Source: an uncultured Alphaproteobacteria bacterium | GTDB lineage: Bacteria > Pseudomonadota > Alphaproteobacteria > ATCC43930 > CGMCC-115725 | NCBI GenBank assembly: GCA_963762575.1 | Contig: CAVXLL010000014.1 | Span: forward strand, 235,811 to 299,810 | Direction of reading: 5' to 3' | DNA length: 64,000 nt | In this document: one piece after another, positions 836 through 51,027 of the stretch | Layout: each line of letters begins with the position of its first letter | How positions within the stretch are numbered: position 1 is the first letter of the stretch | Position numbers and translations under genes: made by a program | Notes under the pieces: generated by a model | Told to the model about the DNA's origin: nothing | The model's input: only the letters and a program-made list of their open reading frames with translations | The model's database searches: none

Positions 836-973
836 TTCAGGAAGTCTGATCATATTATATTATTACGATGTTTGCTGCAAAACATTGGCTGTCACCGCGC
901 CACTATTTCGATTCAAAATCATTAGGGCGGAGCGTCTCACGAGGACGCGTGGAGAGCCGAGCAGTGCCGGGCC

Positions 974-1154
974 GGTTCGCAGCAAACTCTCCGCTGGAGG
1001 GATGGATTCGAACCATGGGTTCCTGTCGCGAGGGAGCCGGTTTATAACGCGGAAGGTGAATTGCGCGGGGATCGACGGGCGGCCAAAAAGGCGGGGTACC
1101 GATGGTTCGAATCCATCTCCCTCCAGCGGCGAGTTTGCGAACCATCGGTCCCGC
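974..1154. repeat. T-arm-like hairpin repeat (TLH), inverted pair
   Basis: Copy 974-1023 (minus orientation) and copy 1095-1154 (plus). Plus copy: GGGGTACCGATGGTTCGAATCCATCTCCCTCCAGCGGCGAGTTTGCGAACCATCGGTCCCGC. ACCGATGGTTCG pairs with CGAACCATCGGT. Confidence 0.85.
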
Positions 1155-1479
1155 TGTGGGGAGAAGGCACAGCTTAGGCGTGCCGTCAGCCACACTCGGG
1201 GTGGGCTGAAGGCCCACGGCTCGAACGCCACCTCGCCGAAGCCCGGTTGCCGCCCGGCAAGACCCTCGACAGCTTCGACTTCGAGGCTGCGGCGGCTTAC
1301 TTTGCTGATAACTTGCGCTTCCATGCCTTCCTCCCTGCGCCGCTGGCGAGAGCCGTCGCCCCGGACCCTTCATGTAACAACAACAAAATCTGTTGCGTGT
1401 TACCGCGGCGCATCAACTCGACTGTCTCTCAGGCAAGAACTGCAGAGCAGCAGCAGATCGGTGTGGAATAGAAATGGAT

Positions 1480-3195: not shown

Positions 3196-3430
3196 GCAAT
3201 CCCAGCTGACGGTAAAGGATTGCCTGGCGGTAAAGGGGACTACGCCGCCGGTAACACCGTGTACGAGACCACGTGCGCGGCTTGTTTAACACGGACCTCA
3301 AGGGCGCGCCGGGGTTTCCGGATATGCCTGCGGGAGCGGCGCTGCGCCTCATTGGCGGTCGTGGCACGTTGACATCGACCAACCCGGTGGTAATCGTCGA
3401 GAGCTACTGGCCATACGCTACGACCTGCAC
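3196..3430 (+). pseudogene. c-type cytochrome fragment, frameshifted in the CxxCH motif and 3'-truncated
   Basis: GNTVYETTCAAC followed after a frame change by DLKGAPGFPDMPAGAALRLIGGRGTLTSTNPVVIVESYWPYATT. The sequence ends abruptly where the IS1634-like remnant begins. Confidence 0.5.
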
Positions 3431-3620
3431 CCGCTGGTGCCGGGGCTGACGCCGCGCAGCGTGCTGTAGAAGTTCGCCGCGATGCAGATGATCGACGTGA
3501 TATGCCAACGACTGACGGCCGCGAGCTCATGCTCACCCGCTATACAGAGCCCGACCCGAGCTCAGCCTGTTGCCATAAGCATGACGGACTGAGGCTCACA
3601 TGCGCCCGCCGCAACGAGGA
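3431..3620 (+). mobile_element. 3' remnant of a diverged IS1634/IS4-like element
   Basis: Nucleotide-level similarity to the 3' end of the transposase gene at 32620-34356 (GGGCTGACGCCGCGCAGCGTGCTG..AAGTTCGCCGC..GCAGATGATCGA..CTCACCCGCTATAC.GAGCCCGA.CCCGAGCTCAGCCT). Confidence 0.7.
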
Positions 3621-3652: not shown

Positions 3653-3682
3653 TCCTCTCGCGCGCGAGAGGATAAAAACTCG
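3653..3682. repeat. GC hairpin + GATAAAAACTC tail motif, copy 1
   Basis: Perfect palindrome TCCTCTCGCG/CGCGAGAGGA (3653-3672) followed by TAAAAACTC. Same architecture at 19353 and 37155. Confidence 0.8.
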
Positions 3683-3745
3683 GCTGCACGAGCGACGGCA
3701 CCGCAGCCGGCTGCGATGGGCCGCGAAATAACAAAGGGGAGCCCT

Positions 3746-4793: not shown

Positions 4794-5060
4794 ATGCCGG
4801 TTCAACGCTTCGCGCCAATGACCAAGGAGTTCGCCACCTTTGATTGCGATGCGCATGTCACGGAGCCGCCGCTGATCTGGGAGCGCGCCAAGGATTTTCT
4901 CACCCGCGACGAACTCGATGCGCTGAAGCGCACGATCTGGTGGGACGCCGACGGCCGCCTCTTGATCGTCAACGGTCGCGCCGGGATCGGTCTTGGCTCG
5001 CCGCGGCGCGGCGGCATCCCCGGCACGATGCGGGTCATCAGCAATGCCGGCCCGGGCGTC
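4794..5060 (+). pseudogene. Amidohydrolase-family gene, 5' fragment only
   Basis: GAGGAGGA RBS then MPVQRFAPMTKEFATFDCDAHVTEPPLIWERAKDFL..DALKRTIWWDADGRLLIVNG. Homology stops near 5060, where the truncated LSR gene abuts on the other strand. Confidence 0.55.
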
Positions 5061-6108
5061 AAGCATGCAGCTTGCGTCCACAATGTCCACAGCGGAGGAG
5101 TCCTACCAGAAGACCCTGGCCAGCGCGTATCGCCGCCATCAACTCGTCCCCCTCCCAGTTCACGGAATTACGCCGCATCATTCGTCGGTTCTCTTCGTAT
5201 GTGGCCCAGTGAATATAACCTACATGATGATCGCGCATGAAGACGCGGCACTCTTCGGCGGGGCGCATCGCGCTCTGACGTTTTTCAAGCCGGCCGTCCA
5301 CCAGCAACGTCGTTACCGGACGCCGTCCCCAAACATACGCGCCAGCATAGAAGGGATTGCACAAAATGTCGCGGATCAGGCTCTGCGAGGGAATCTTCCA
5401 GACCAGCCGCGTTCCCTGAATGGGGTTGGCCGGTAGCTCCACGTCGTGATCACGGAACCATTGGAATGTCTGACGCACGCTCCACAGTTCTCGAAACTTG
5501 GCGAACACGAGTTGTATCGCTTCGCAGATCCGTCGGTCGGGATGAAACACAATCTTTCCCACGGGGTCTCGGGCATACCCAACCGGGAGCCTTTTGAACA
5601 GTTCACCGCGGCGCGCTTTGGACTCCTGTCCCGCCAGCAATCGTTGGCGTAGGACCTTGAGTTCGACCACGCTGAGTGTCCCTTTGATGCCCAGCACCAA
5701 TTGATCGTCGAGAAAATTCAAATCGTAGATCTGTTGCTCGTCAGCGATAAGCGTTCCAAAGATCTGACACACCTCGAGCAGCCGACACCAGTCTTTGTCG
5801 GTGCGGGATAGCCGCGATAATTCCCGGCTGCCGACGATTCCGACCTCTCCCAGTGCCACCAAGCTGAGGACACGCTCGAAGCCTTCCCGCTGGGCGGAGG
5901 CAATGCCCGCGCTCGATCCCAGGTCACTATTGATGATCTCGACCTGCTTCCAGCCCAGAGCACGCACTCGTTCGGCCACCGCATACTGCAGCTGTTGACT
6001 TTCCTTATTCTGTCGCACTTGTCTTTCGCTGGACTGCCGAAGGTAGACGATCGCCTTCCGAGCCAGGTGCTCCGGTTTGATCTTGGCATTGTACAAAACC
6101 TCGGTCAT
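5059..6108 (-). pseudogene. Large serine recombinase, C-terminally truncated
   Basis: 349 aa: KPEHLARKAIVYLRQSSERQ (catalytic Ser region), resolvase and recombinase domains, and the start of the zinc ribbon (LLRCGHCGRKLH). It ends there, whereas the paralog at 11386-13461 has 691 aa. Confidence 0.85.
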
Positions 6109-7321: not shown

Positions 7322-7783
7322 TTCAATGACCTTCCTTCTCATGTCCTGGCCGCATCCGCTCGCTGGAGCATTCCGCTCCTGGCGTCGCGCCGATTTCACC
7401 GTGCTGCCTGCGAACGCTGTCACAACGCCACCGACGGACCCTGACATCAGCCGTCGAGAGCGGCAGCGGCGGCCAATTTGCGATCACCGGCGGCTTTCAC
7501 ATCTTGGCCAACTCGCAAAACCTATCTCCCGCCGACGCCGCTACTCCGACAAATCCCCATAGACGGCCAAGCGCTCACCGCCTCCCGCGGATTCGTTCTT
7601 CGGAGGCTGTCGGACGCCGGCCCGCCGGCTCTATACCGGATCGACCGCTCGCGCCCGGCCGGCATCCGAAACCCTTCCCGAGATCGGAGCCGGCGCTCCG
7701 CTCTCTAAAAAGCGTCTTGGTGTAGCTCGTCAGCCTCAAGGCTACCGTTCGCCGATCGCCGCTAGATCGCGGCGGTTCGCATC

Positions 7784-7826
7784 AAACTCACTGGTGGAGG
7801 AAGCGAGATTCGAACCTGTATGGGGC
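7784..7826 (-). repeat. TLH repeat copy
   Basis: rc reads ..CAGGTTCGAATCTCGCTTCCTCCACCAGTGAGTTTGATGCGAACC. Confidence 0.7.
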
Positions 7827-7876
7827 TTTTCCTGTCAAGTGGTGGTTTTTGGTTTTTGCCGGTTCTTTGTTCGGAG

Positions 7877-9790
7877 GTGTGTCCAGGTAAGGCTAGCATG
7901 TTCAGCAGGAGGCAGTCCTGCCGGGGTAAAAGTCAGAGCCCCGTAGTTTGGATAGCGGAGGAGATGGAAACAGAACCTTCGAAGCCTATCGACAAGATCT
8001 CCCGAGGGGAGAGCACGAGTCACCGGGCTGTATCAAAAGAGAACGCATTGTGGCCTCGAAAAAAGTAGCCCCGAGGGCCGAGCCTACCTCCGAAGGGCGA
8101 AGGCAGCAGGAGCCGCCGAACACTGACCGATACGGCTTTCACCTCGGCGGGGTGGAAGCGACGGCACGGTGACAAGGACATGCTGAGCAACTGGAGAAGC
8201 CCTCCTCGTCCCGGCGCGAAATCGCCGGAGCAAGGTAGGCCGTATAACCGGCGACACCGGGAAGTCGGCCGAAGACGAGAGGGTGGCGGCTGGGTCCGGA
8301 GTAGTGAGGAAGCGGAGTAATGTCCGTGGAGCGAAGGGGCCCTGCCATTTGCAATGTCTCCAACGTAAGGAAGGCAAGGACGAGATGACAAAGGCGTCCA
8401 TCGATTTGCAGGACCTGAGGCGGAGACTATACGGCAAGGCGAAGGCTGAACCGTCCTGGCGTTTTTGGGGGCTATACGTCCACGTCTGCAAGATGGAGAC
8501 CCTGCGCGCAGCGTATGCGATGGCCAAACAAAACGATGGGGCCCCGGGAATAGACGGGGTCACGTTCGAGGCCATCGAGGCGCAAGGCGTGGAGGCTCTG
8601 CTCGAGCAGCTGCGCGACGAACTGACCGGGTGCACCTACAAGCCACTCCCAGCCCGGAAGCAGGAGATACCGAAAGACGGGGGCAAAGTCCGCGTCTTAT
8701 CGATCCCGGCGATCCGGGACAGAGTGGTGCAGGGTGCGCTCAAGCTCATCCTCGAACCTGTGTTCGAGGCGGACTTCCAACCGGGGTCGTATGGATATCG
8801 GCCCAAGCGGACAGCACACGACGCGATCAAGCGAGTGGCTGAAGCAATAGCTCAGCGGAAGACGCGGGTCCTGGACTTTGATCTGCGAGCCTACTTTGAC
8901 AATGTCCGGCATGACCGGTTGTTGGAGAAAGTGGCTCAGCGGGTCGACGACAAGGACATCATGCATCTGTTGAAACTTATGCTAAAGGCCTCTGGCAAGA
9001 AGGGCGTTCCGCAAGGCGGCGTGATCTCGCCCTTGCTCAGTAATCTCTACCTCAATGAGGTGGACAAAATGCCGGAGCGAGCGCGGGAAGTCACACGCAA
9101 CGGCAAGTACACCAATGTCGAATATGCGAGGTTCGCTGACGACCTGGTGGTCTTGATCCACGCCTACAAACGTCATGACTGGCTGATTGGAGCAGTGAAC
9201 AAGCGACTACGGGAGGAGTTCGCCAAACTGCAGGTCGAAATCAATGATGAAAAGAGCCGCAGAGTTCGACCTGGAACGAGGTGAGAACTTCGGCTTTCTG
9301 GGGTTTGACTTCCGCTACCTCCGCGGTCTGCGCGGAGTGATGCGGCCGCATTACACGCCCAAGCTCAAAAAGCGGACGGCGCTGCTGCGGGAGCTCAAGC
9401 AGGTATTTCGCCGACACCGGTCGCAACCGATTGAGAGGGTGATAAGCCTGATCAATCCAATGCTGCGGGGGTGGGTCAACTACTTCGCGGTGGGGAACTC
9501 TAGCGAGTGCTTCACCCACATCAGAGATTGGGTAGAGAAGAAGGTCAGGCGCCAGCTGGCGCATGCTCGGAAACGAAAGGGCTTCGGCTGGGAGCGGTGG
9601 AGTAGGCCGTGGCTGTATGACACTCTAGGGCTGTTCAACAGCTATCGAGTGCGACACGACGGACCGAAAGTTGCCCCGGCATGATAGGTCCCATAAGCCC
9701 TGAAGTGAAGCAAATGGGGGCGCGCAGTGCGGGAAATCCGCATGCTGCGTGCGACGTGGAGGGGGCTGGAAACGTGGCACGGTCGGGATA
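7877..9790 (+). mobile_element. Group II intron (boundaries approximate)
   Basis: Begins with GTGTG (GUGYG consensus) at 7877. Contains an RT/maturase ORF in the domain IV position. Candidate domain V at 9722-9750 (GCGCAGUGCGGGAAAUCCGCAUGCUGCGU, GAAA-type loop, 2-nt bulge). The 3' end is not pinned. Confidence 0.7.
8385..9684 (+). pseudogene. Group II intron reverse transcriptase/maturase, one frameshift near 9255-9265
   Basis: RT motifs (GAPGIDGVTFEAIE, RVLSIPAIRDRVVQGA, YGYRPKRTAHDA, GVPQGGVISPLLSNLYLNEVD, FADDLVVL) in frame 8283-9284. The maturase X domain (LINPMLRGWVNYF) continues in frame 9244-9684. No endonuclease domain seen. Confidence 0.85.
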
Positions 9791-10169
9791 CCTCGGCCAA
9801 CTGGCGCGCCAGTCCTCGACCCTACCGGGAAAGCCGTTCTTCGTCCCGTCGCCTGGGATCAGGTTCGCGGAGCGCGCGGAAGGGGTCAAGGGACCGAAAC
9901 GGTAGCACAGCTTGGCGGCTTGCCGCTTAGCGTCGCTTGTGTTTCGCAGCGCCTTGACGCCTGAGCACGCGGAGCGACGATGAACGGCGAGACGGGCTTT
10001 TGCATAGCTTCGGGGCGGTCGGTGCCTGAGGATTCGAGGGGAGCTCGCCACTGGGGCACATCTTCGTGCCACAGACTTGTATGCGGTAGGGTCATTTGAT
10101 CCTGACCATGATGCAGTCATGCGCATCGGCGGCGAAGCTCCGGGCGGCGGGCCCATTCTCTCGGTCGGC

Positions 10170-10813: not shown

Positions 10814-11392
10814 AAGCGACGAGATAACGCCCATAAGATCGAGGAGCTTGAGGTCCTCTACCCGTGGCATCCGTGGTTCGGACGGGTTGTTCATGTCCAT
10901 GAGGTGATCGAGCAACGAGCCGGCGGCGTCCTTCACTGCAGTCCGGATGGCGACGCTTCACGGCGTTGGCTTGAGCTGCCGCAGTGGATGTTCGACCGTG
11001 CGGCATGCCTGGCGATCCGCATGGCGGCCTCACCGCGTGTCGATACCACGGCGCTCATCGCCTTGAAGACGTGTCTTGCGGACGCGTCGGATGCTGGCTT
11101 GTGCGGCGGCCCTCTATCGAATGCCTCTGCTTCTGGTGCAGGGAGGAACTCCTGCGACCAGAATCAGGGAGCTGCCCGTGCGACACAAGTACCGACGTCC
11201 ACCCAGCCATCAGGCCGCCGTCAAGCAGTTAGATCTATTCGGTCTGCCAGGCGCGAAGCACCCGACCCCGGTGTTAGAGTGGCAGCAGCTGCCGGAGGAG
11301 ACCCGCCAGATGGTCACCGGGCTGATGGTGCACCTACTCGTCAACCACCAACGCCGCGATCGCGAGCCCAACTCGATAGGAAGGCGTGGTGA
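10814..11392 (+). CDS. LSR-element ORF-A (conserved YPWHPW protein); no canonical start inside the element; true end uncertain
   Basis: The frame is open from the left element end. Conserved with copy 1 ([28 protein letters not shown]). First in-frame GTG/ATG lies downstream of the conserved N-terminal motif. Confidence 0.45.
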
Positions 11393-11399
11393 TGTCTGA
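11076..11399 (+). CDS. LSR-element ORF-B (small protein overlapping the recombinase start)
   Basis: [42 protein letters not shown] is conserved with the second frame of copy 1. Its stop overlaps the LSR start by 8-14 nt. Confidence 0.45.
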
Positions 11400-19352: not shown

Positions 19353-19381
19353 CCCTCGCGCGCGCGAGGGGATAAAAACTC
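19353..19381. repeat. GC hairpin + GATAAAAACTC tail motif, copy 2
   Basis: Perfect palindrome CCCTCGCGC/GCGCGAGGG (19353-19370) followed by GATAAAAACTC. Confidence 0.8.
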
Positions 19382-19587
19382 CGCTCCAGCAGGCAAGCAA
19401 CGATCCTATGTTTGAACATTTCGCTTCCCAAATCGCTTTTCGCGCGCCCCGCGACACCTACTGCCGGCACGATGAGTACAGGTGCAGAGTTTAGACGACT
19501 GCTCCGCGCCGATCCGTCTAGGGGCACCGCGATGTTGCCCCACTGTGCGGACGTTACAATCGGGAAACCGTGCCGGACGTAATTCTT

Positions 19588-20625: not shown

Positions 20626-21003
20626 GGTTGCGGCGGTGAGGGTTGTTGATCGCGGCCCGCCGACGCATAGGCGAGCATCTGCGCCGTACTGACTTTGCAG
20701 GTTTATACGATCTTTGACATCCATCCGCTCCTTGCCGACGAGTTCGTTCGCCGCGGAGAGCCATCTCAGGCGGTTTGACCTGGCATTTCGGGCGTCCGCC
20801 TGTGCAGGGCCTCGATTTCGAGGTCGATGTGCGTGGCGTCGCTCAGGAATTGGTGATCTGACGCATACGCGCGACGCAAAAATTGCCACGCCGCTGAAGG
20901 ACGCGGGTTCTAAATAACTTTTGATTCTCCTCCGAGTAGTGCCGCTCTCTCCGGCCGAAGGAGACGGAACCTTGTGGCGCGTGTTGAAAGGGGTCTTTTC
21001 AAA

Positions 21004-21054
21004 GCGGGACCACGAGTTCGAATCCACCTCCCTCCAGTGCGAACTGTGCGGCCG
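21004..21054 (+). repeat. TLH repeat copy (short-loop variant)
   Basis: GCGGGACCACGAGTTCGAATCCACCTCCCTCCAGTGCGAACTGTGCGGCC. CAC(G)AGTTCG pairs with CGAACTGTG. Confidence 0.8.
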
Positions 21055-23198
21055 GTAGCACGCCGCTTACACCACAGGGTCTTCAACCCGGCACATTGGT
21101 CACGATCGGCGGCTCGGGGTTCTGCCCGGATTCACAGGTCAGCTTCGGCAATCCGGAGCTAGGTGCCACGGCGACGCCAAGCACCATCGCCACCGACGGC
21201 ACCTATATGACGGTTTCCACGCCGGTGCTCGCAACCGACGGCCCGGTGACCGTTTCGAGCGCAGGCGTGGCCGCTAGCTCACCGGAAAGCCTTCATGTCA
21301 ACAGCTATCGCAACGTCAACGGCTATCAGTTTCATAACTACGACCCGATCATCACATTCGATCAAATGACCGAGGCGTTCGGTGCAGGCCAAACATACAC
21401 GACCATTGTGATTCCTGTGTGCGTGATACTTGGTGTCTTCATAGACTGCAACATTACCGAAACCTTCAAAGACCCATTTGCGTTGCTTCTGCTCGCGATG
21501 CCAATGACACCATTGACGCCGGCGCCTGCTTCGGATTCTCACTCTCTACCCAGCAATTCCTAGAGGGGTCGGAATCGCTGGGTGGCTTCCCTAACGACGG
21601 CAACAACACGATCTTCGGGCTCGACACACCGTCGGATCCATCGGCGCTGCGCGATTTCATCAACGCAATGCATGTCTCGCAGCTGAGTGATCCGTTTCTC
21701 AGCCATTATCTGAGCGAAGCGTCCAGCCACCTCGCCGAGGGCGGCGCCGCCGCTGCGCAGGACGTATACAATGGGATTCGCGGCGTCTTTTCGCAAGGCC
21801 GTTTCCCGCTTATCTCGATGCGCGACGCAACTATCGTGACAAAGGGCCACGAGGTGGTCGCGTACAATATCGAGGACGCTCCGCCCAACTGGTACATCGA
21901 CGTCTATGACTCCAACGAGCCATTCAACGGTAGCGAGAATAGCACGACCGACGGCGGCGCCTTTCACAAGACGCAGTTCGAGGCTAGTCGTATCCAGATC
22001 GGTTCCACCGGGGAATGGTCCCTACCAAGCAGCGGCATTTCGGGAGACATGACAGGGCTCGTCGTGACCGACCCGGCGAGCCTGCCCGAGGATCCCACGA
22101 TGGCGACCGACCCCGCCGGGCTCATCGGAGTCTTGGCCAGCAGCGCCGGCACTGCTGGCACGAGGGGTACTGGCAGCGTCGGTCCATCGAGCCGGGTCAC
22201 GCAGGTGTCCGACGAGACCGGTCACACGCTCTTGACGCCCAAGGAAACCTCAATACAAACCCAGCGACCAGGCTGCGGGGCATGCCGTTTGCCCCGCTTG
22301 TCGCCGACACGGCGCGCAGCACTGGGGCCGCTGGCGCGGGGACCCCGCAGATAATCCTTCTTGGCAGCGGTGCGTCAACACTGCACGCGACTATAACCGA
22401 TACCAACTCTGGCAACGACACGCACACTTTCCTTGGCCAAGGCTTTGCCGCTCAGATTGTCACGGCCGCTGCAGGACGCGGTGTTGTGGACAAGCTTACA
22501 CTTGACCCTGCTGCCGGCGCCGGATTCGCCACGACCGCCCCGAGCAAGCCGCTGACCTTGAAGCTTATCGGAGCGATGGGGAAAGACCGCCGCACCGTCG
22601 AGATCACGACGACCAGCTTCAGCGGCGCCGGCGATTTGTTATCATTTACGGACTCAAGCAGCGGCCTTTCGTTCATCCACAACGGCCCTGCGACTACGTT
22701 CACCATCAGCCTCTGGTCGCAGGGCCCGACCAGCGCGCCGACGCTTTTCCAGAGCGACCCGCTGCCGATCGGCGCCGGCGAGACCGCGCGGCTCGACTCG
22801 ATCCAATGGGACTCGCTTACCGACACCACACTGAAGGTTACCAGCGGCGGGCGGACGGTCACCGTCGCCAATCGCCTTCCGCCGCCGCGGTCAGCCACGA
22901 TCAACTCACTGCAGGTCACGAAAGTGGGCGACCGAACCGCCAAGCTCACGATCCGCGCCGGGCTCCGAGAATTGCGGGCCGGAGCAAACTCGCGTTTGGA
23001 TGGGTTGTGCAGCGCGAAGGTCGAGTAGTGGCGACCCACGGGCAGTTGGTGCCGGCCGGCACGGAGACGGCGAGCTTCGAATTCACCCCGACAGACCCGG
23101 GCCGCTATGATCTGACCGCAACCGTTACCGTGATCTCAAGCAGCCTTGCACCCGAGGGAGCGGCGTCCACCAGCCGAACGATACCGTTTAGCCTGTAA
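21055..23198 (+). pseudogene. Large secreted/surface-type protein (IPT/TIG-like N-terminus), 5'-truncated, at least 3 frameshifts
   Basis: Coding signal runs through four overlapping frames (21096-21563, 21419-22354, 22015-23028, 22806-23198). N-terminus PGTLVTIGGSGFCPDSQVSFG..TYMTVSTPVLATDGPVTV. Frame changes near 21500, 22230 and 23000. Confidence 0.65.
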
Positions 23199-24579: not shown

Positions 24580-25110
24580 TCAGCGCGAGATTGCCTCGAG
24601 GCGCAGATTTGTGGTGCGCGGGCCCATCGATGCGATCACGACAAAAACGGAGACCATTGCGGTTGCAATGAATAGGAAGACGTCGGTCGTCCCGTAATTC
24701 CTGAGAAAAAAGGCGATGAAAAATCCGACGAAGATCGTGCTGAAACGGCTCCAAGAATACGTGAAGCCGACGGCGCGGGCGCGGATCCGGGTCGGGTAGA
24801 GCTCTGACTGATAGGTATGCAGCGAATAGGCGAGCATGGTATTGGAAAACGCGATCAACAGGCCAAAGACGACGATTCCGGCGGCGCTCCTCTGTTGCGA
24901 AAAACAGAGGCCAAAAACCGCGATCCCGAGCGCCGACCCGGCAAGCTGCCATTTTCGCTCGAGGCGGTCCGCGAACTGGGTCGCGGCCAGGGCGGCTCCC
25001 GGCGAGGCGAGCGCGATCACGAACGTGTAGGCGAGCGATTTTGTAATGTTGATCCCTTGCGAAAGTAGCAGTGTCGGAACCCAGCTCGTAAACCAGTAAT
25101 AGCCGATAGT
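24580..25110 (-). pseudogene. MFS transporter, C-terminal half only (3' part of a 437-aa chimeric ORF)
   Basis: TIGYYWFTSWVPTLL..YQSELYPTRIRARAVGFTYSWSRFSTIFVGFF..: MFS helices 7-12 with the sugar-porter-type motif. It is joined in frame to a desaturase fragment at 25110/25111. Confidence 0.75.
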
Positions 25111-26086: not shown

Positions 26087-26190
26087 GTGATTCTCTGGAG
26101 GCGTATGGAATGCTCCCCAATCTGAAATGAGGAGGGGTGATCGTCAACGAATTCCGGGTGATGAGAGCCCGAAAACGCAACTCTTTGCGA

Positions 26191-26245
26191 GAGGGACCGA
26201 TGGTTCGAAGCCGGCTCCCTCCACCAGCGAGTCCGCTGCGAACCT
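26191..26245 (+). repeat. TLH repeat copy
   Basis: GAGGGACCGATGGTTCGAAGCCGGCTCCCTCCACCAGCGAGTCCGCTGCGAACC. Confidence 0.75.
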
Positions 26246-26343
26246 TGACTTTCTCGATCAGGGATGCGCCCGCGCCCCGCGACATGCATGGCGCAACGGG
26301 CATCGGCTCTTCCCGGCCAGCCGGAGCCGCAGCCGCAACCGCT

Positions 26344-30422: not shown

Positions 30423-30578
30423 AGGCGGTCTGCACACAGCCGATGTGCCCCTACCCGCAGCGAGCGCAGTAACGTGGATCTACTAGATGCGAGAGCGGCG
30501 GCGGAAGGGTCCTCTGTCCCTACTACAGTTGCCGCTGTCGTCGTGCCACTACAGCGATGCCGGAAATTTCTGAGTTCA

Positions 30579-30632
30579 GGTTCGCACCCAACTCTCCGGT
30601 AGAGGAAAGCGGATTCGAACCATCGGTCCCGC
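30579..30632 (-). repeat. TLH repeat copy
   Basis: rc: GCGGGACCGATGGTTCGAATCCGCTTTCCTCTACCGGAGAGTTGGGTGCGAACC. Confidence 0.8.
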
Positions 30633-30748
30633 TTGGAGAAAAGCGGTGGTTCCGAAACGCGAGCATCCGCGAGCTGCATCGCGCAGCCTACCGGGGCGGG
30701 CCGCAAACGATATCGGCGCGGACGACCGTCAGGCAGCCGGCGATCAAA

Positions 30749-30991
30749 TCATAGCAACACGGCTACGGCGTCGGAGCTGCAGGTGAGAGCTGTGGGCTGA
30801 ACAGCGGTAACCTCAATATCTTGAGCGAGGCGCGGATACATGCGCCGGAGCTGATCAGCGAGCAAGTCAGCGTCGACCCGAACGAAGAAGTGCTTTGCTC
30901 GTCTTTGGTCAGTAGAAAAGTTCGACGCTGATGCGTCATACCATCCGATGATTGTTTTGTCGAACTTTTTCCGAAGAGCGATGCAATACAT
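30749..30991 (-). CDS. Hypothetical small protein in an AT-richer stretch
   Basis: 80-aa ORF (MYCIALRKKFDKTIIGWYDASASNFSTDQRRAKHFFVRVDADLLADQL..) with non-shadow composition. No homology recognised. Confidence 0.3.
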   Translation of the reverse strand: MYCIALRKKFDKTIIGWYDASASNFSTDQRRAKHFFVRVDADLLADQLRRMYPRLAQDIEVTAVQPTALTCSSDAVAVLL

Positions 30992-31289
30992 GATTTGGGG
31001 TCTTCACAGCTGGATTTCTTGAATCCTTGATGTGGCGGGCAGGCTCAAAGCTGATTTGCTCGTGATACTTTGGACAGTGCATCACGTTAAAATCAAGTCG
31101 CTGCCGTATGCTGTCACGAAGCAAAGGTCCTGCATTTTGGCTGTCTGTCTAACCGGCCGGCAGCTCATGGCGATATCCTGGCATGCAAGGATATCGGCAG
31201 AGAAAATGACAGCATGCTTTCGCTGACGTTAATTTTTCGTAACTTCCATTTGACGGCACGGGGTGCGGAGTCGTGGCGGCAGGTTCTTC

Positions 31290-31529
31290 AACCAACTCCG
31301 CAGCCCTCAGAGTTCCTCTAACTCACCGCTGGAACAAGCTGGATCGAACCGTCAGTACCGCGTGAGACGACCAAGATTTCGAGAGAGGGGCTCGTGTCGG
31401 CTCTCCTTGCCGCAACGGAGAAGGCGGCGCGACGAGACCCGATATCACGACGAGGGCGGGGGGTCTTCCGCGGGACCGATGGTTCGAATCCGGCTTCCTC
31501 CAGCGGCAAGTCAGCGGCGAACCCGACCC
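31290..31529. repeat. TLH repeat, inverted pair
   Basis: Partial minus-orientation copy around 31300-31362 (..CACCGCTGGAACAAGCTGGATCGAACCGTCAGTACC) and plus copy 31470-31529 (GCGGGACCGATGGTTCGAATCCGGCTTCCTCCAGCGGCAAGTCAGCGGCGAACCCGACCC). Confidence 0.75.
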
Positions 31530-31758
31530 GAGAGCACCTCGCCTGCCTGAGAAGCGCTGGATTTGGGAGTCTTCTGGCGCTGGAACGCTTGAGGGAGCGG
31601 CATCAGAGGGTCTTAATCGCCTGCTCACCCCGCTGAACACAGTGAAGAGCCAGGCGCCGGAAACCGGAAATGTGGAGGTAGCGATTCGGGACGGCTGAAC
31701 AGCGGGTGTTCTTCAGGCGCTCTTAATCCGATTTCGCCCATGGTCGGCAAAACGCCCC

Positions 31759-32315: not shown

Positions 32316-32459
32316 ACCGCGAACTGCGGCGTCGGCCGCAAAGGTATTCACAGGACGCGCCGCGGATTTGGTAACTGTCTGAAACAGCACTCGGTTCACC
32401 GAGTGCAGGGATCGGATTTTCACGGATGGAGCTCGCGGGGGCAAAGAAGCGCTCTGCGG

Positions 32460-34476: not shown

Positions 34477-34700
34477 GCAGGCACCGGGAGTTTTCCGTTC
34501 CTAGCGCTGGCGTGTCCGTTGGTTTGAGGCGTCCCCGAGAGGCCGATTGACCAGCGACCCGCTTCACTCCGAACAACCTGGCCGTCTTGCTCCATGCGCT
34601 CCAATGCGATTTCGGTTCGGTCGGCTAGGTACTCGATCGCTTTGGCGATCTGGGCCGCCGTCATCGGCTGACCGGAAAACGACAACTCCCGCACGATCAA
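34473..34700 (-). CDS. Small winged-helix-like hypothetical protein, probably 3'-truncated by the IS
   Basis: 75-aa ORF (..MTAAQIAKAIEYLADRTEIALERMEQDGQVVRSEAGRWSI..). Its stop codon (34473-34475) lies inside the terminal CTAG of the IS. Confidence 0.4.
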   Translation of the reverse strand: MIVRELSFSGQPMTAAQIAKAIEYLADRTEIALERMEQDGQVVRSEAGRWSIGLSGTPQTNGHASARNGKLPVPA

Positions 34701-38079: not shown

Positions 38080-38268
38080 CCGGGTTGCGAGCTTCGTCGA
38101 GCGCCTGACCATTGCTGCGAGGGGGGCTGGGAGCCCCTGGCGCGGCGGCAACCTGATCAGGTCGGTCAATCCACTATGGATTCTGGTTATCGCCGGCCGC
38201 TATCGGCGCGCTCGGCCTAATCTGACGCGGACATAATCCCGGGTCGGGCGCCCTGATGAAGGGGAGCA

Positions 38269-38436
38269 GGTTCGCAGCAGACTCCATGCCGGAGGAAACG
38301 GGATTCGAAGTCCCGGTCCCGATCACAAACCGGCGCGTTAGGCGAACGACAGAGTGGCCGGCTTTTGCGAACGTAGCGCATGCGGGTGGGACCGGGTTCG
38401 CTCGAGACTCCCTCCTCCACCGCAGAGTCTGCGAAC
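38269..38436. repeat. TLH repeat, inverted pair (CCUCCUCC-loop variant)
   Basis: Minus copy 38269-38331 (rc CGGGACCGGGACTTCGAATCCCGTTTCCTCCGGCATGGAGTCTGCTGCGAACC) and plus copy 38388-38436 (GGGACCGGGTTCGCTCGAGACTCCCTCCTCCACCGCAGAGTCTGCGAAC). Confidence 0.75.
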
Positions 38437-38479
38437 TTTTTGTCCCTCCCGGGCCTATTTCAGCGAAGACATCGGAGCC

Positions 38480-40509: not shown

Positions 40510-40586
40510 GCGCCGCCGTCGCGTGTACGGGAAGTGCATGAAGATCGGCCCAACTCGGACGAAACCACGAAACTGTTGCCTATCTA

Positions 40587-40647
40587 GCGCGGAACTGAAC
40601 GTTCGAATCCAGTCCGCCCCAGCGGCGAGTCGGGCGAACGTCAGTCC
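40587..40647 (+). repeat. TLH repeat copy
   Basis: GCGCGGAACTGAACGTTCGAATCCAGTCCGCCCCAGCGGCGAGTCGGGCGAACGTCAGTCC. ..CTGAACGTTCG pairs with CGAACGTCAG.., i.e. compensatory relative to copy 1095. Confidence 0.8.
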
Positions 40648-40669
40648 GTGTGCTGCGCATTGACTGATG

Positions 40670-42892: not shown

Positions 42893-43104
42893 CAGACACC
42901 TGCCGAAGCATCCGGGGGCTCTCGTCCGCGATGCGGCGGGCAATTTCACGCTGGGCCTGATCGCGATCGCGCTCGGCCCGGCATTGTCGGCGATCGTCGT
43001 ACTGTTGCTCGGCCACGATCGGCGCCTTGAACACATCCCGACCCGGCGACTCGCCACGCCATGACACGCGATATCATTTGCCATGCGGCGGGCTCACCGC
43101 GTCA

Positions 43105-43160
43105 GCGGAACTGGCAGTTCGAATCCATTCCCCTCCAGCGCGGAGTTTATTGCGAACTTG
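43105..43160 (+). repeat. TLH repeat copy
   Basis: GCGGAACTGGCAGTTCGAATCCATTCCCCTCCAGCGCGGAGTTTATTGCGAACTTGG. Confidence 0.75.
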
Positions 43161-43536
43161 GCTCTTCCGGCGTCGACGCAGCGAGCCCGCCAATAACCCC
43201 GGGGCCGAGCGGAACTGCCGGAAGCGCGCACCTGGTTCGAACGTCCCGGCGAGCGGCGTCGCGAACAGGGCGTGTGTGTCGGCGATGTAGAGCATACCGT
43301 CGCCGCCCACGGCGAGACCGCCGGCATGGCCGCACGGGCTCGGCACGTCGACATATCCGGTTGGCCGCCCGTCTCGAGATCCATGCGGATCACCCGACAG
43401 GCCCGCGATGGACGCCCAAGCTGTCGCTGCGATAGGCGGAGACGTAAATGCCGCCACCATCGATCGCGAGCCCCTGCAGATCGTAGCCGTCATCGAGTCC
43501 CGGTAACCAGTCCCAATCGGCGCCGATCGGGGCCTC

Positions 43537-48659: not shown

Positions 48660-48830
48660 ATTCCCTGATCGGGCGAAAAAATTCCCTGATGGCCCGAATT
48701 AATTCCCTGCAAGGCCGAATTAAATTCCCTGTTCCGATGCGTAGGGAATTGGGTCGTAACCCATTGAATTCGGCTATCCCTCTCGAGCCAATAGTCGCAC
48801 TTGAGAGGCCTAGACGAACAAAATTCCCTG
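48660..48830. repeat. Phased AATTCCCTG repeat array
   Basis: ATTCCCTG at 48660, 48681, 48702 and 48724 (spacing 21, 21, 22). Inverted TAGGGAAT at 48742. Direct copy at 48823. A further inverted CAGGGAAT lies at 50845, just beyond the IS. Confidence 0.85.
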
Positions 48831-48841
48831 TATTTTCCCAG

Positions 48842-50844
48842 CTAGCCGAACTTCGCCGATTGGAGCACTTTTAAGCGCCTAAGTGTCTGAGATCGCTGAG
48901 GTGGACCCCCGAAGGTCGGCACTACAGCGAGGTGGGTGGCGTCGGCGGGATGGCGGTGATTTTAGGTGGTGGTTGGGCGGGAAGCTCCAGTTTCAGCTTA
49001 TTCAGCAAGAGGCTAAGATCGGGTTCGGGCTCGGTATAGCGGGTGAGCAACAGCTCGCGGCCGTCGGTGGTCGGCAGGTGCACATCGATCATCTGCACGG
49101 CGGCGAACTTTTCCAGCACGCTGCGCGGCGTCAGCCCGGGCGCCAGCGCATGCAAGCGCCGCGCAAGAGTGACGTGCAGGCAATAGGCCAGGAAGGCGAT
49201 GAAGACGTGCGCCTCAACGCGTGCCTCAATCTGGTGAAAGACCGGCCGGATCGCCAGGTCGCCCTTGAGGTTCTTGAACGCCTCTTCGACCGCCACCAGC
49301 AGCAGATAATGGCTCCACAGCTTGGCGGGGTCTTCCTCGACGAGGTTGGTGCGCAACAGATACCGGCCTTCGCGCGATCGTGCCTGCCGCAGCTTATTGC
49401 GATCGAGCCGAAGCTGAAGGTGGCGCGTCTGCGGCCACCTCGATGGTGACCAGGCGCCGGCGGCGTGGACTGATCGCGCTGGCGCCGAGTTCATCGAGCA
49501 GTTCGTCGCGCCCAGCGCCATTGCCGACCGCCTGAGCCGGGCCCACAGCCGCTTCAGCTGCCGCCGCCGCATCGCACGCTCTTTGGCGACGCGGTCGCGG
49601 CTCTGGGCGAGGACATAGAGTTCTCCCTCTTGCGCCAACAGCTTGACCTGCACGCCGGGTCGCGCCTCTTGCCACGGCTGGGCAATCAGATGCTTCTCCA
49701 AACGCGTCAAGCGACCCTTCGGCGTGCCCACCAGGTAATGCACCGGCGGGTCGGCCGCGCGCATTTCGGCGAGCACCTCTTCGGTCGGCACGCCGCGGTC
49801 CATCAGCCAGACGCGGCGCGCCTTGCCGTATTGTCGCTCGATGCGTCGAGAAACCCCCGCAATGTCGTCTTGTCCGCAGTGTTGCCGGCCATCACCTCAT
49901 AGGCCAGCGGCAGGCCTTCGGGCGTCACCACCAGGGCAATGACGATCTGCACACAATCGGGTCGATGATCGCGCGAGTACCCAAAGCGGCGCTTGTCGCC
50001 TTCCGGGAACGGGGATCGCCTCGAAATAGGTGCTCGTCAGATCGTAGAGCAGCACGTCGTAGCTGATGTTGAACAGATCGCGCCACCGTCCCACCAGGTG
50101 ATCGAAGACCGCTTGCTTGTGCGCGAGCAGTCGGTCGTGACAACGATACAGCTTGTGGATCTCGGCCAACCCGGCATCCTCGCCCAGGAGATCGGCCACG
50201 GCGCTGCGCTGAAACCACTCGCGGTGCAGGCGCCATTCGCTGCCCGGCGCCAGCAGGCGATAGGCGACCAGCACGAACAGGACCTGATCCCAGCGCGTCC
50301 CCTTGCGGCTCACCCCCAGCCGCTTCGACCAGAACTGATCGAGCTGCAGCTCACGCCACAGCATCAACGCCAGCCAGCACGCACCCCACTGCCGTGGCCG
50401 GCGCAACTGCAACTGCGACAGCTTGACGTGGACGATCGAGGTGTCCGCCAGCACTCCTGCGCCGCGGTCTTCCGGAAACAGCGACAGCGTCCGCGGTTGC
50501 GTGGCGCCTTCCTCGAGCACCTCGATTGAGCGCCGCCACGCCAACTCCTGCGTGTCGTTGATCTCGCCCAGGTACAGCACGTGCCGCTGCACCACGCGCC
50601 CCCTGGCGGTCCGCGTGTTCTCGACAACGCTCCAATAGCGATGTTGCTTGCCATCCTTCCGGCGAACTTTGCAGCGCAAGAACATGATGGCCGGCGATTA
50701 TCGGCACATTGGCGGCCGAGAGAATAGACTTGGTCGGCACTACAGCCGATTTTCGGTGTTTTGGCCCGCCGCGCTCCTTGTCGTTCAATGACTTGCCCGG
50801 CGAAAATTCCGGAACGGCGGGTCGAATCGGCGAAGTTAGGCTAG
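48842..50844 (-). mobile_element. IS1634/IS4-like insertion sequence, decayed inverted copy
   Basis: Near-identical at nucleotide level to 32460-34476 in reverse orientation, with the same terminal IRs. Carries several indels. Confidence 0.87.
48922..50685 (-). pseudogene. IS1634/IS4-family transposase, multiple frameshifts
   Basis: Split into ORFs 49897-50685 (N-terminal 262 aa, diverging after TSTYFEA) and 48922-49803 (C-terminal part with an out-of-frame internal stretch). Confidence 0.87.
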
Positions 50845-50864
50845 CAGGGAATTTGGGCTTCAGA

Positions 50865-50913
50865 GACGGGTTCGCTCGAGACTGCCTCCTCCAGCGAAGA
50901 GTTCAGGAGCGAA
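50865..50913 (+). repeat. TLH repeat copy (CCUCCUCC-loop variant)
   Basis: GACGGGTTCGCTCGAGACTGCCTCCTCCAGCGAAGAGTTCAGGAGCGAAC. Closely resembles the copy at 38388. Confidence 0.7.
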
Positions 50914-50916
50914 CTC

Positions 50917-51027
50917 GATTTCGAGGACCTCGCCAAGATGACAACCGCGCTCCTCGACCGTCTCACGCATCATTGCGAAATCATCGAAACCGGCAACGAG
51001 AGCTGGCGCTTCAAACACCGCGACTGA
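50917..51027 (+). pseudogene. IS21-family IstB helper, extreme C-terminal fragment
   Basis: [35 protein letters not shown]-stop matches the conserved IstB C-terminus (..LDRL.HH...+...G.S+R.K). Confidence 0.7.

What the first reader, a model, noticed from the sequence alone, without database searches (positions are those of the whole stretch)
974..1154. Dispersed ~50-60-nt hairpin repeat with a tRNA T-arm-like GGTTCGAATCC core, CCUCC-rich loop and compensatory stem changes (at least 13 copies)
Approximate consensus: GGGACCgatGGTTCGAATCCnnnTCCCTCCAGCGGCGAGTnTGCGAACC(atcGGTCCC). Copies lie at 974-1023(-), 1095-1154(+), 7784-7826(-), 21004-21054(+), 26191-26245(+), 30579-30632(-), about 31300-31362(-), 31470-31529(+), 38269-31(-), 38388-38436(+), 40587-40647(+), 43105-43160(+) and 50865-50913(+), with a possible degenerate copy at 10170. 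The 5' and 3' flanks of the core pair, and the pair next to GTTCG/CGAAC covaries between copies: ATGGTTCG/CGAACCAT at 1095, AACGTTCG/CGAACGT at 40587, and CAC(G)AGTTCG/CGAACTGTG at 21004. That is three different Watson-Crick pairs at the same position. The loops carry CCUCC or CCUCCUCC, which looks like an anti-Shine-Dalgarno sequence and is reminiscent of alphaproteobacterial multi-copy 'cuckoo'/alpha-r14-type sRNAs. Three loci are inverted pairs that could form ~50-bp hairpins, which is MITE-like. Many copies sit exactly at the edges of gene fragments, so they may mark recombination breakpoints. In six-frame translations they create recurrent pseudo-peptides (GFEPSVP, SNPSPSSGE).
Basis: partly seen in the sequence, partly recalled or inferred. 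Interest (0 to 1): 0.65.

Follow-up and report, generated by a model that had tools for sequence, protein, structure and literature searches.

The report
Multi-copy serine-recombinase landing-site repeat
The "tRNA-like hairpin repeat" is a real, high-copy DNA repeat of uncultured soil Alphaproteobacteria, but the evidence says it is a recombination site where mobile elements carrying a large serine recombinase (and a group II intron) insert, not a small RNA gene.

Summary
The repeat is real. A covariance model finds 11 copies at E<=4e-5, plus 2 variant copies; the 10170 candidate is not supported. Related soil MAGs (Stellaceae and unclassified Alphaproteobacteria) hold tens of copies or more per genome.

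It is not a tRNA and matches no Rfam family. The T-arm-like stem shows no covariation. The long hairpin shows only weak covariation and is mostly no more stable than shuffled sequence.

The copies behave as DNA recombination sites. Two arms flank a common core, CCCTCCAGCGG:
- Arm A: GGGACCGAtGGTTCGAATCCnnCTCCCTCCA
- Arm B1: GGnGAGTC-n4-TGCGAACC

A mobile-element family encoding DUF3489, DUF2924 and a large serine recombinase carries a 50-bp symmetric partner site, X-core-B2, about 240 bp from the recombinase gene. All four arm combinations occur (A-B1, X-B1, A-B2, X-B2). I predicted X-B2 and then found it in 24 metagenome contigs. In near-identical sequences, homology breaks inside the core.

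The common form spans about 41 bp and the partner spans 50 bp, which matches the attB/attP size rule.

Copies are intergenic and often form head-to-head doublets, as REPINs do. A group II intron repeatedly homes into them.

How the copies multiply is not known.

The parts
963..1031 (-). Type-1 copy (arm A, core, arm B1). Left half of a head-to-head doublet.
   Evidence: CM 51 bits, E 1.2e-10; nhmmer E 4e-14; sequence.
1090..1154 (+). Type-1 copy with short B1 and an extended 3' arm (GCGAACCATCGGTCCC). This is the only window copy with a long, stable hairpin. Right half of the doublet.
   Evidence: CM 74 bits; fold z = -3.7.
1032..1089 (.). Spacer of the doublet 963-1154. The same composite of about 190 nt recurs in other MAGs (L057, L106, L107, L112, L020).
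7774..7816 (-). Copy whose arm A is cut at ..GGATTCGAACC| by a group II intron.
   Evidence: CM 40.7 bits, model positions 15-57 only; junction sequence.
7818..9825 (+). Group II intron inserted immediately 3' of the copy's inverted repeat.
   Evidence: Rfam D1-D4, 105.5 bits; domain V/VI, 36.8 bits at 9718-9825; RT ORF; the same junction occurs on different copies in L013, L020, L029, L044 and L079.
21001..21056 (+). Degenerate type-1 copy with an internal deletion between CCAG and TGCGAAC.
   Evidence: CM 29.2 bits.
26188..26255 (+). Type-1 copy, about 90 nt downstream of the MTHFR gene.
   Evidence: CM 61 bits.
30568..30639 (-). Type-1 copy. Left boundary of a 900-nt unit. In L089 the homologous copy carries B2 and a recombinase-element end instead of B1.
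   Evidence: CM 60.4 bits.
30606..31505 (.). 900-nt unit bounded by inverted copies. It is about 97% identical to L089, and the identity stops inside the cores.
   Evidence: higher depth than neighbouring genes in soil metatranscriptome contigs.
31300..31368 (-). Degenerate type-1 copy. Head-to-head partner of the copy at 31464.
   Evidence: CM 32.5 bits.
31464..31534 (+). Type-1 copy. Right boundary of the 900-nt unit.
   Evidence: CM 65.8 bits.
38258..38325 (-). Type-1 copy (variant).
   Evidence: CM 42.9 bits.
38383..38448 (+). Type-2-like copy (X-like arm GGTTCGCTCGAGACTCCCTCCTCCA, then B1). Head-to-head with the copy at 38258.
   Evidence: 14.8 bits.
40581..40651 (+). Type-1 copy (variant). 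A 5'-truncated methyltransferase starts 78 nt downstream.
   Evidence: CM 47.4 bits.
43101..43169 (+). Type-1 copy between convergent hydrolase genes.
   Evidence: CM 54.4 bits.
50855..50926 (+). Type-2 copy (X, core, B1), the attR-like junction.
48680..48834 (+). Left part of module M (repeated AATTCCCTG motifs), which precedes arm X. Here it is split by an IS at CTAG; the right part lies at about 50845-50865.
48835..50851 (.). IS (DDE_Tnp_1 transposase) inserted into module M. Not part of the repeat itself.

Best explanation
**What it is.** The repeat is a family of short, imperfectly palindromic DNA sites. It is not an RNA gene.

**Anatomy of a common copy (type 1).**
- Left arm A: GGGACCGAtGGTTCGAATCCnnCTCCCTCCA.
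- Right arm B1: GGnGAGTC-n4-TGCGAACC.
- Both arms flank a common core, CCCTCCAGCGG.

**The partner site.** A family of mobile elements encodes the operon DUF3489, DUF2924 and a large serine recombinase (LSR, about 566 aa). It carries a longer, symmetric partner site, X-core-B2, with GTTCGC and GTGAAC each 24 bp out from a central GC (50 bp in all). The site lies about 240 bp past the recombinase stop codon.

**The reaction.** Recombination between X-core-B2 (attP-like) and a type-1 copy (attB-like, about 41 bp) inside the common core gives A-core-B2 next to the recombinase (attL-like) and X-core-B1 (attR-like, the 'type 2' copies at 38388 and 50865). The dispersed copies are therefore a multi-copy set of landing pads for these elements, and also a homing site for a group II intron.

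**What is shown.**
- The repeat family and its anatomy.
- All four arm combinations.
- Homology breakpoints inside the core.
- The position of the recombinase gene.
- The difference in site length.

**What is inferred.**
- That this LSR catalyses the exchange.
- Which form is attB.
- That the distal motif is read by the zinc-ribbon domain.

**What is unknown.** How the copies themselves multiply. They occur as singletons and as head-to-head doublets with conserved spacers, like REPINs, but no dedicated transposase was found. The resemblance to a tRNA 3' end (T-loop, acceptor strand, discriminator A) may reflect descent from a tRNA-gene attachment site, or may be coincidence.
For: **1. The family is real and widespread.**
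- More than 116 loci with the exact 26-nt pattern, in a capped scan; 17-20 loci in single MAGs.
- 237 nhmmer hits in 790 kb.

**2. Arm classification around the core in the held loci.**
- A-B1: about 130.
- A-B2/3: 16.
- X-B1: 6, plus 2 in the window.
- A followed by another flank directly after CCAGCGG: 27.

**3. The predicted fourth combination exists.** X-core-B2/3 was searched for and found in 24 metagenome contigs, most with module M upstream.

**4. The recombinase sits next to the site.**
- An LSR gene reads towards the site with its stop 230-260 bp away in L107, L023, L128, L134, L141 and L143.
- B2 alignments run into the LSR 3' end in five loci.
- The DUF3489-DUF2924-LSR operon is seen.

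**5. Breakpoints fall in the core.**
- L130 (X-core-B2) and L023 (A-core-B2) are about 97% identical to the right of CCCTCCAGCGG and unrelated to the left. Their LSRs are 95% identical.
- Window 30606-31505 and L089 are about 97% identical up to CCAGCGG, then differ: B1 in the window, B2 plus a recombinase-element end in L089.
- The same doublet carries B1 in L057, L106 and L112, but B3 plus an LSR in L107.

**6. Geometry fits the rule for serine integrases.**
- The partner site is symmetric, 24+2+24 = 50 bp. Type 1 is 21+2+18 = about 41 bp (my count on the sequences).
- B1 and B2 share the inner GGnGAGTC, but the outer G(C/T)GAAC motif is 6 bp further out in B2.
- This fits the published rule that attB is about 10 bp shorter than attP, with the distal (ZD) motif shifted about 5 bp towards the centre (PMC3783163).

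**7. The arms are conserved without covarying,** as expected for protein sites.

**8. There is a precedent.** The phiRv1 serine recombinase integrates within the REP13E12 repeat (PMC9317374).

**9. Assembly artefact is unlikely.** Many junctions are in long-read MAG contigs. The shared core (11-17 nt) is far shorter than assembly k-mers, so chimeric assembly is an unlikely cause (inference).
Against: - No single contig shows a complete element with both attL-like and attR-like ends. The elements exceed the 10-kb flanks I could fetch.
- The symmetric centre is GC, a palindromic dinucleotide, whereas serine integrases normally use a non-palindromic one. The true crossover position within CCCTCCAGCGG is not resolved.
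- Arm A is conserved out to about 31 bp from the centre, which is longer than a typical attB half-site. Its distal motif is shifted by only 3 bp, not 5, relative to X.
- B3-type flanks are followed by an LSR in L107 but by unrelated genes in L033, L060, L133 and L140.
- The window's own two LSR genes belong to another family (22% identity). No B2/B3 flank is present in the window.
- A landing-pad role does not explain how tens to hundreds of copies arose.
- No enzymology has been done.
Confidence: 0.6

Rival explanations
1. A classical REP/REPIN system. The copies would be short palindromes spread by a REP-associated tyrosine transposase (RAYT) acting on single-stranded hairpins. The recombinase elements, IS and intron would merely exploit them as targets. 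This is compatible with the landing-pad role; it differs only on what makes the copies.
For: - Copies are intergenic and occur in clusters of 2-4 in mixed orientation.
- There is a strong excess of head-to-head doublets with spacers of 60-110 nt (35 of 48 close pairs).
- Doublet families with conserved spacers are shared within and between genomes.
- These are the features that define REPINs (PMC3116915, PMC3337134).
Against: - No Y1/RAYT gene was found among 85 ORFs next to copies, nor among ORFs lying between inverted copies. Only 8-kb pieces around copies were held, so this is not exhaustive.
- Most copies do not form stable hairpins.
- The element (about 60 nt with long non-palindromic conserved arms) is unlike typical 20-35-nt REPs.
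Confidence: 0.15
2. The copies are the ends and scars of serine-recombinase-driven mini-elements. On this view arm A is an element end (a P-type half-site) and arm B1 is a target half (B-type), so every type-1 copy is itself a hybrid junction. Doublets and the 900-nt unit would be non-autonomous elements moved in trans by an LSR, TnpX-like.
For: - In doublets, and in the 900-nt unit, the A arms face inwards and the B1 arms outwards.
- Arm A is long, like an attP half-site, and B1 is short, like an attB half-site.
- The 900-nt unit is about 97% identical in two genomes, with different outer arms.
- With a central GC, the inverted cores are compatible with serine-recombinase insertion (inference).
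Against: - Only one near-empty B1'-GC-B1 site was seen (L071), and it is attached to module M.
- Beyond 400 nt, pair orientation is random.
- About a third of neighbouring copies are in direct orientation.
- Circles of 100-200 bp are poor recombinase substrates (general knowledge).
- A palindromic crossover dinucleotide would be unusual.
Confidence: 0.12
3. A structured small RNA or tRNA-like RNA element: a cuckoo/alpha-r14-like sRNA with CCUCC anti-Shine-Dalgarno loops, or a tRNA-like 3' module.
For: - The sequence resembles a T-loop plus a 3' acceptor strand.
- C/T variation at two inner-stem positions keeps G-U pairing in the '+' sense (pairs 28-44 and 30-42).
- There is weak excess covariation next to GGTTCG/CGAACC.
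- Copies are present in metatranscriptome contigs.
Against: - No tRNA and no Rfam family.
- The T-arm does not covary.
- The consensus and most copies fold no better than shuffles.
- No orientation bias to genes.
- No shared promoter or terminator. Flanks differ or fall into MGE families.
- Breakpoints of near-identical DNA lie inside the 'loop'.
Confidence: 0.05
4. Terminal inverted repeats of a DDE-transposon family and its MITEs.
For: - Inverted doublets of about 190 nt and a 900-nt unit with terminal inverted copies.
- Several transposase families occur near copies.
Against: - No target-site duplication is evident at doublet ends (sequences).
- No transposase gene is consistently bounded by copies.
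- Most copies are singletons.
- The arms exchange at an internal core, not at the outer ends.
Confidence: 0.05
5. A conserved protein-coding motif on the opposite strand (..RFAxDSPLEGxGFEPSVP..).
For: The fully variable columns (8, 11, 17, 29, 44, 50) are spaced in threes and fall on third codon positions of that frame.
Against: - In-frame open lengths equal those of the control frames.
- Only 8 short hypothetical proteins match, among 5.8 billion, and none in plasmids.
- Many third positions are invariant, and the substitutions that do occur are radical.
- The peptide is the usual antisense-tRNA-like artefact (general knowledge).
Confidence: 0.02

Closest known systems
Attachment sites of large serine recombinases/integrases (A118, phiC31, Bxb1 type)
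   Same: - Short imperfect palindromes around a central crossover.
- A 50-bp site next to the recombinase gene and a partner of about 41 bp.
- A shared inner motif, with the distal motif displaced outwards in the long site.
- Hybrid junctions carrying one arm of each partner (rule from PMC3783163).
   Different: - The attB-like partner is present in tens to hundreds of copies instead of one.
- The symmetric centre is a palindromic GC.
- Arm A is conserved further out than a normal attB half-site.
- The recombinase sits in an operon with DUF3489 and DUF2924 proteins of unknown role.
- No biochemical proof.
phiRv1 prophage-like element and the REP13E12 repeat of Mycobacterium tuberculosis
   Same: An element encoding a serine recombinase uses a repeated genomic element as its attB, so several alternative integration sites exist (PMC9317374; Bibb & Hatfull 2002, as cited there).
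   Different: - REP13E12 is a long repeat with only a handful of copies (about 1.4 kb and seven copies, from my memory).
- Here the repeat is about 60 nt and palindromic, with very many copies.
- It belongs to a different phylum and is unrelated in sequence.
REP / BIME / REPIN elements mobilised by RAYT transposases
   Same: Short intergenic palindromic repeats in high copy number, forming clusters and inverted doublets with spacers, and used as targets by other mobile elements (PMC3116915).
   Different: - No RAYT was found.
- The conserved arms are longer and mostly non-palindromic.
- The hairpin is weak.
- There is a defined internal exchange point linked to a serine recombinase.
Integron attC sites
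   Same: Imperfect inverted repeats recognised by a site-specific recombinase, with boundaries of exchangeable units inside the site. Some group II introns (class C) insert at them (PMC4424553).
   Different: - No integron integrase and no ordered array in one orientation.
- No GTTRRRY/RYYYAAC core sites.
- The associated enzyme is a serine recombinase, not a tyrosine recombinase.
Alphaproteobacterial multi-copy sRNAs (alpha-r14 / 'cuckoo') and tRNA-like RNAs
   Same: Multi-copy, C/U-rich CCUCC motif, hairpin potential.
   Different: No Rfam match even at E<=10, no structural covariation for the T-arm, and no promoter/terminator frame.

Membership tests
tRNA / tRNA-like RNA | Detected as a cloverleaf by tRNA finders or by the Rfam tRNA model at its gathering score | tested here: not met
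   ARAGORN finds 0 tRNAs on copies in the window and in 116 loci. Rfam tRNA scores 15.6 bits against 29 required.
tRNA / tRNA-like RNA | T-arm stem maintained by compensatory changes | tested here: not met
   Variable stem pairs are paired 0.47 against 0.42 expected, and 0.45 against 0.43. The covariation score is below the shuffle mean.
alpha-r14 / cuckoo or any Rfam sRNA family | Match to the family's covariance model | tested here: not met
   The only gathering-level hit in the window is the group II intron. A scan of the doublet at E<=10 gives only sub-threshold chance hits.
Structured RNA in general | Statistically supported covariation and above-background stability | tested here: inconclusive
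   For the long hairpin, double changes are 85 against 59 in shuffles (0/500), but paired cells are 71.2% against 70.2% and the outer stem is mostly unpaired. Only 2 of 5 window copies tested fold better than shuffles.
REP/REPIN (RAYT) | Short intergenic palindromic repeats in high copy | tested here: met
REP/REPIN (RAYT) | Inverted doublets with a spacer as the predominant paired form | tested here: met
   35 of 48 pairs less than 150 nt apart are head-to-head.
REP/REPIN (RAYT) | A RAYT (Y1 transposase) gene flanked by the repeats | tested here: inconclusive
   None among 85 neighbouring ORFs (only the top 25 Pfam families were listed) and none among 19 ORFs tested individually. Whole genomes were not available.
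MITE of a DDE transposon | Terminal inverted repeats plus target-site duplication, and a related autonomous element | tested here: not met
   No duplication at doublet ends. No transposase bounded by copies.
Large serine recombinase attachment sites | Imperfect palindromic sites of about 40-50 bp; the attP-like site lies next to the recombinase gene | tested here: met
   The symmetric 50-bp X-core-B2 site lies 230-260 bp from the LSR stop in L128, L130 and L134.
Large serine recombinase attachment sites | All four sites exist (attP, attB, attL, attR), with exchange in a short common core | tested here: met
   Breakpoints are shown.
Large serine recombinase attachment sites | attB shorter than attP, with the distal motif shifted about 5 bp towards the centre | tested here: met
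   About 41 bp against 50 bp. The distal motif is shifted 6 bp on the right arm and 3 bp on the left arm (my count; rule).
Large serine recombinase attachment sites | Non-palindromic central dinucleotide that sets polarity | tested here: inconclusive
   The symmetric centre is GC (palindromic). The crossover cannot be placed more finely than within CCCTCCAGCGG. No wrong-polarity junctions were seen.
Large serine recombinase attachment sites | The recombinase catalyses attP x attB recombination | not testable with these tools
   Needs an in vivo or in vitro assay.
Integron attC | GTTRRRY/RYYYAAC core sites, and arrays next to an IntI integrase | tested here: not met
   The sequences lack these core sites. 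Copies lie on both strands and are dispersed.

The most novel reading that the evidence does not exclude
The repeat family is not only a landing pad. On this reading it is itself produced and spread by serine recombination. Arm A would be the end of non-autonomous mini-elements (doublets, the 900-nt unit), and arm B1 the target half. A large serine recombinase would then maintain a genome-wide population of miniature elements. That would be a serine-recombinase counterpart of the REPIN-RAYT partnership, possibly seeded from the 3' end of a tRNA gene.
Probability: 0.15. Interest if true: 0.8.

Novelty: new variant of a known kind. Interest (0 to 1): 0.55.

Why it matters
- **A natural experiment in site recognition.** This could show which positions of a serine-integrase site matter, and could supply recombinases with many native landing pads.
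- **Genome structure in this lineage.** It explains why this accessory region is a mosaic of cassettes, gene fragments and nested mobile elements.
- **MAG quality.** It explains why MAG assemblies of these soil Alphaproteobacteria break at these points. Short repeat-ended contigs are binned to unrelated phyla.
- **A caution for annotation.** tRNA-like or 'hairpin with covariation' signals in raw sequence can be protein-recognised DNA sites.

Tried and rejected
- **Coding motif on the opposite strand.** Suggested by period-3 variability. Rejected because ORF lengths equal the control frames, there are almost no database proteins, and many third positions are invariant.
- **Real tRNA or tmRNA.** Rejected. 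The single ARAGORN 'tmRNA' in L009 spans an inverted doublet and is spurious.
- **RAYT or any other dedicated transposase next to copies.** Not found. IS110-family hits were 3 of 85 ORFs, and I could not locate them by motif, so I did not pursue them.
- **The reverse complement of B2/B3 joined to B1 as the other element end.** Not present in the held loci.
- **Both ends of one recombinase element on one contig.** Not seen within 10-kb flanks of three long contigs, nor by joining adjacent loci.
- **Source genome of the window.** Two exact-protein look-ups failed. A plasmid search gave no informative hit.
- **Discrete transcripts.** Only assembled metatranscriptome contigs were available. They break at the repeat, so they cannot show RNA ends. 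The 'joints' skipping 30630-31472 rest on only 20-25 nt and probably come from other doublets.
- **Orientation relative to genes.** My GC3-based gene caller is crude, and the result (88 against 61) is not decisive.
Full report
**1. Observation**

The sequence at 974-1154 holds two inverted copies of a motif of about 60 nt.

- GGTTCGAATCC with up to 1 mismatch occurs 10 times in the window, against 2.0 expected.
- A 25-nt pattern occurs 8 times, against 0.16 expected.
- A profile HMM finds 11 copies.
- A covariance model built from 110 copies of related genomes finds the same 11 at E<=3.6e-5.
- The copies at 38388 and 50865 score at E of about 0.1, and nothing scores at 10170.

**2. Distribution**

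Almost all come from soil MAGs labelled Stellaceae or 'uncultured Alphaproteobacteria', with 17-20 loci in single MAGs.

A number of hits lie on 1-3-kb contigs binned to unrelated phyla. I take these to be mis-binned contigs that broke at the repeat.

The window's DNA is present in many soil metagenomes and metatranscriptomes.

In 790 kb of held sequence there are 237 copies. They are intergenic, often 2-4 per intergenic region, in mixed orientation. Pairs closer than 150 nt are head-to-head in 35 of 48 cases.

**3. Not an RNA gene by the available tests**

- ARAGORN finds no tRNA on any copy.
- Rfam gives nothing at gathering score except a group II intron.
- At E<=10 the tRNA model scores 15.6 bits against 29 required, and no alpha-r14/cuckoo family appears.
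- The core does read like a tRNA 3' end: a T-loop GGTTCGAATCC, seven 'acceptor' bases TCCCTCC, and a discriminator A. Two copies even continue with CCA. But the variable T-stem pairs are paired no more often than chance, and the T-arm structure scores below shuffled controls.
  - The next two pairs show some double changes (85 cells against 59 in shuffles, 0/500).
  - Overall pairing is 71.2% against 70.2%, and the outer nine pairs are unpaired in most copies.
  - Only the copies at 1095 and 26191 fold better than shuffled sequence.
- Metatranscriptome contigs contain the copies but break at them, so they say nothing about RNA ends.

**4. A coding artefact considered and dismissed**

The freely variable columns are spaced by three, and the opposite strand reads ..RFAxDSPLEGxGFEPSVP... 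Three results argue against a coding role:

- In-frame open lengths equal those of the other frames.
- Only eight short hypothetical proteins in 5.8 billion carry the motif.
- Many third positions are invariant.

**5. Anatomy as a DNA site**

Similarity among all copies covers about -15 to +48 around GGTTCG. Beyond that, the flanks fall into families.

Around the common core CCCTCCAGCGG:

- The left arm is either A (GGGACCGAtGGTTCGAATCCnnCTCCCTCCA) or X (..AGAGACGGGTTCGCTCGAGACTGCCTCCTCCA). X is preceded by a module of about 230 nt, module M, with 4-6 AATTCCCTG motifs.
- The right arm is one of two kinds.
  - B1 is GGnGAGTC-n4-TGCGAACC.
  - B2/B3 is GGnGAGTCYGTCTC.., conserved for 100-400 nt.
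- Counts in the held loci are about 130 A-B1, 16 A-B2/3, 6 X-B1 (plus window 38388 and 50865), and 27 A-core followed directly by other sequence.

**6. Link to a large serine recombinase**

B2 runs into the 3' end of a gene of about 566 aa with Resolvase and Recombinase domains. This is a large serine recombinase (LSR) that reads towards the site. The gene is preceded by DUF2924 and DUF3489 genes. The same arrangement, with A-core-B2 230-240 bp after the LSR stop, occurs on long contigs L141 and L143. The LSRs of L023 and L107 are 50% identical over their full length.

**7. Prediction and test**

If A-B2 and X-B1 are the products of recombination between an element site and a type-1 copy, the element site X-core-B2 should exist. 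I searched metagenome contigs for it and found it in 24 contigs, most with module M upstream. The LSR lies downstream wherever the contig is long enough: L128 with the full operon, L134, and L130.

**8. Breakpoints**

- L130 (X-core-B2) and L023 (A-core-B2) are about 97% identical from CCCTCCAGCGG rightwards and unrelated leftwards. Their recombinases are 95% identical.
- Conversely, window 30606-31505 and L089 are about 97% identical up to CCAGCGG. After that point the window has B1 and L089 has B2 with the recombinase-element end.
- The same doublet carries B1 in L057, L106 and L112, and B3 plus an LSR in L107.

Exchange therefore happens inside the 11-bp common core.

**9. Geometry**

In X-core-B2, the motifs GTTCGC and GTGAAC end 24 bp on either side of a central GC, giving 50 bp. 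In type-1 copies they end 21 and 18 bp out, giving about 41 bp. B1 and B2 share the inner GGnGAGTC, but the outer motif sits 6 bp further out in B2 (my counts on the sequences).

This matches the published rule for serine integrases. Minimal attB sites are about 10 bp shorter than attP sites, and the distal zinc-ribbon-domain motif is shifted about 5 bp towards the centre (PMC3783163).

**10. Other users of the site**

A group II intron at about 7818-9825 sits immediately after ..GGATTCGAACC of copy 7774-7816, that is, directly 3' of the inverted repeat on the opposite strand. The same junction occurs on five different copies in other genomes.

Insertion after inverted-repeat motifs (terminators or attC sites) is the known habit of class C introns (PMC4424553). 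I did not determine the class of this intron.

An IS sits in module M next to copy 50865.

**11. What remains open**

- No contig shows both ends of one recombinase element.
- The crossover dinucleotide is unresolved, and the symmetric centre, GC, is palindromic.
- Arm A is conserved further out than a usual attB half-site.
- B3 flanks are not always followed by an LSR.
- The way the copies multiply is unknown. The doublets with conserved spacers look like REPINs (PMC3116915), but no RAYT was found in the limited sequence I held.
- An alternative I cannot exclude is that type-1 copies are themselves hybrid junctions left by serine-recombinase-driven mini-elements.

**12. Comparison and verdict**

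The nearest precedent is phiRv1, whose serine recombinase integrates within the repeated REP13E12 element (PMC9317374).

This case differs in three ways:

- The repeat is a short palindrome in very high copy.
- The recombinase is in an operon with DUF3489 and DUF2924.
- The complete set of four junctions is recoverable from environmental sequence.

I classify it as a new variant of a known kind. The RNA interpretation is not supported. The observation itself, the MITE-like pairs and the recombination-breakpoint idea are supported.

Noticed in passing
window 7818-9825: A group II intron (RT ORF 8283-9284, possibly frameshifted through to 9684; domain V/VI at 9718-9825, below the Rfam gathering score). 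It has homed into a repeat copy, and the same junction occurs on different copies in L013, L020, L029, L044 and L079. The 3' exon (CGGGAAAGCCG..) is not the expected remainder of arm A.
   Followed up: partly
window 32454-34483 and 48835-50851: Two 99%-identical inverted copies of an IS encoding a 578-aa DDE_Tnp_1 transposase. The second copy is inserted at a CTAG inside the AATTCCCTG-repeat module M. A diverged IS fragment (about 88% identity) lies at 3426-3557.
   Followed up: partly
window 48680-48834 and 50845-50865; L026, L049, L062, L071, L092, L104, L108: Module M, about 230 nt with 4-6 direct and inverted AATTCCCTG motifs, always lies just left of arm X. It may be a binding array for an accessory or directionality protein of the recombinase element.
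   Followed up: partly
window 3654-3688, 19354-19388, 37153-37187: A second small repeat: a GC palindrome followed by GATAAAAACTC (CCTCNCGCGCGCGAGNGGATAAAAACTC). Three copies.
   Followed up: no
window 1226-1282: 57 nt that are 91% identical to unannotated DNA on two Microvirga lotononidis plasmids. Possibly another short conserved element.
   Followed up: no
window 24580-25893 (-): A chimeric ORF: a fatty-acid desaturase domain fused to the C-terminal part of a sugar/MFS transporter. This looks like a gene fusion or fragment junction.
   Followed up: no
window 5059-6108 (-) and 11386-13461 (+): Two large serine recombinase genes of a different family (22% identity to the repeat-associated LSR). 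The first is truncated. No repeat core lies next to either.
   Followed up: partly
window 30640-31460: The interior of the 900-nt unit has higher contig depth than the neighbouring genes in four soil metatranscriptomes. It contains only short ORFs (62-80 aa) with no Pfam match, so it may be a small gene or a non-coding RNA.
   Followed up: partly
window 45549-45600 and 46281-46376: A perfect 26-nt palindrome (52 nt in all), and two tandem 48-nt units (79% identical).
   Followed up: no
L004, L009, L011, L014, L017, L032, L044, L053, L076, L077, L085, L101, L112 and others: Repeat-bearing contigs of 1-8 kb are assigned to MAGs of unrelated phyla (Acidobacteriota, Planctomycetota, Chloroflexota, Verrucomicrobiota, Actinomycetota). 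This is probably mis-binning of contigs that end at the repeat. L101, in a cultured Dactylosporangium genome, looks like a chance match.
   Followed up: no
L142 1252-8492: Upstream of one DUF3489-DUF2924-LSR operon lie two further serine recombinase genes and four ParB/RepB-like genes. This suggests a plasmid-like or integrative backbone.
   Followed up: no
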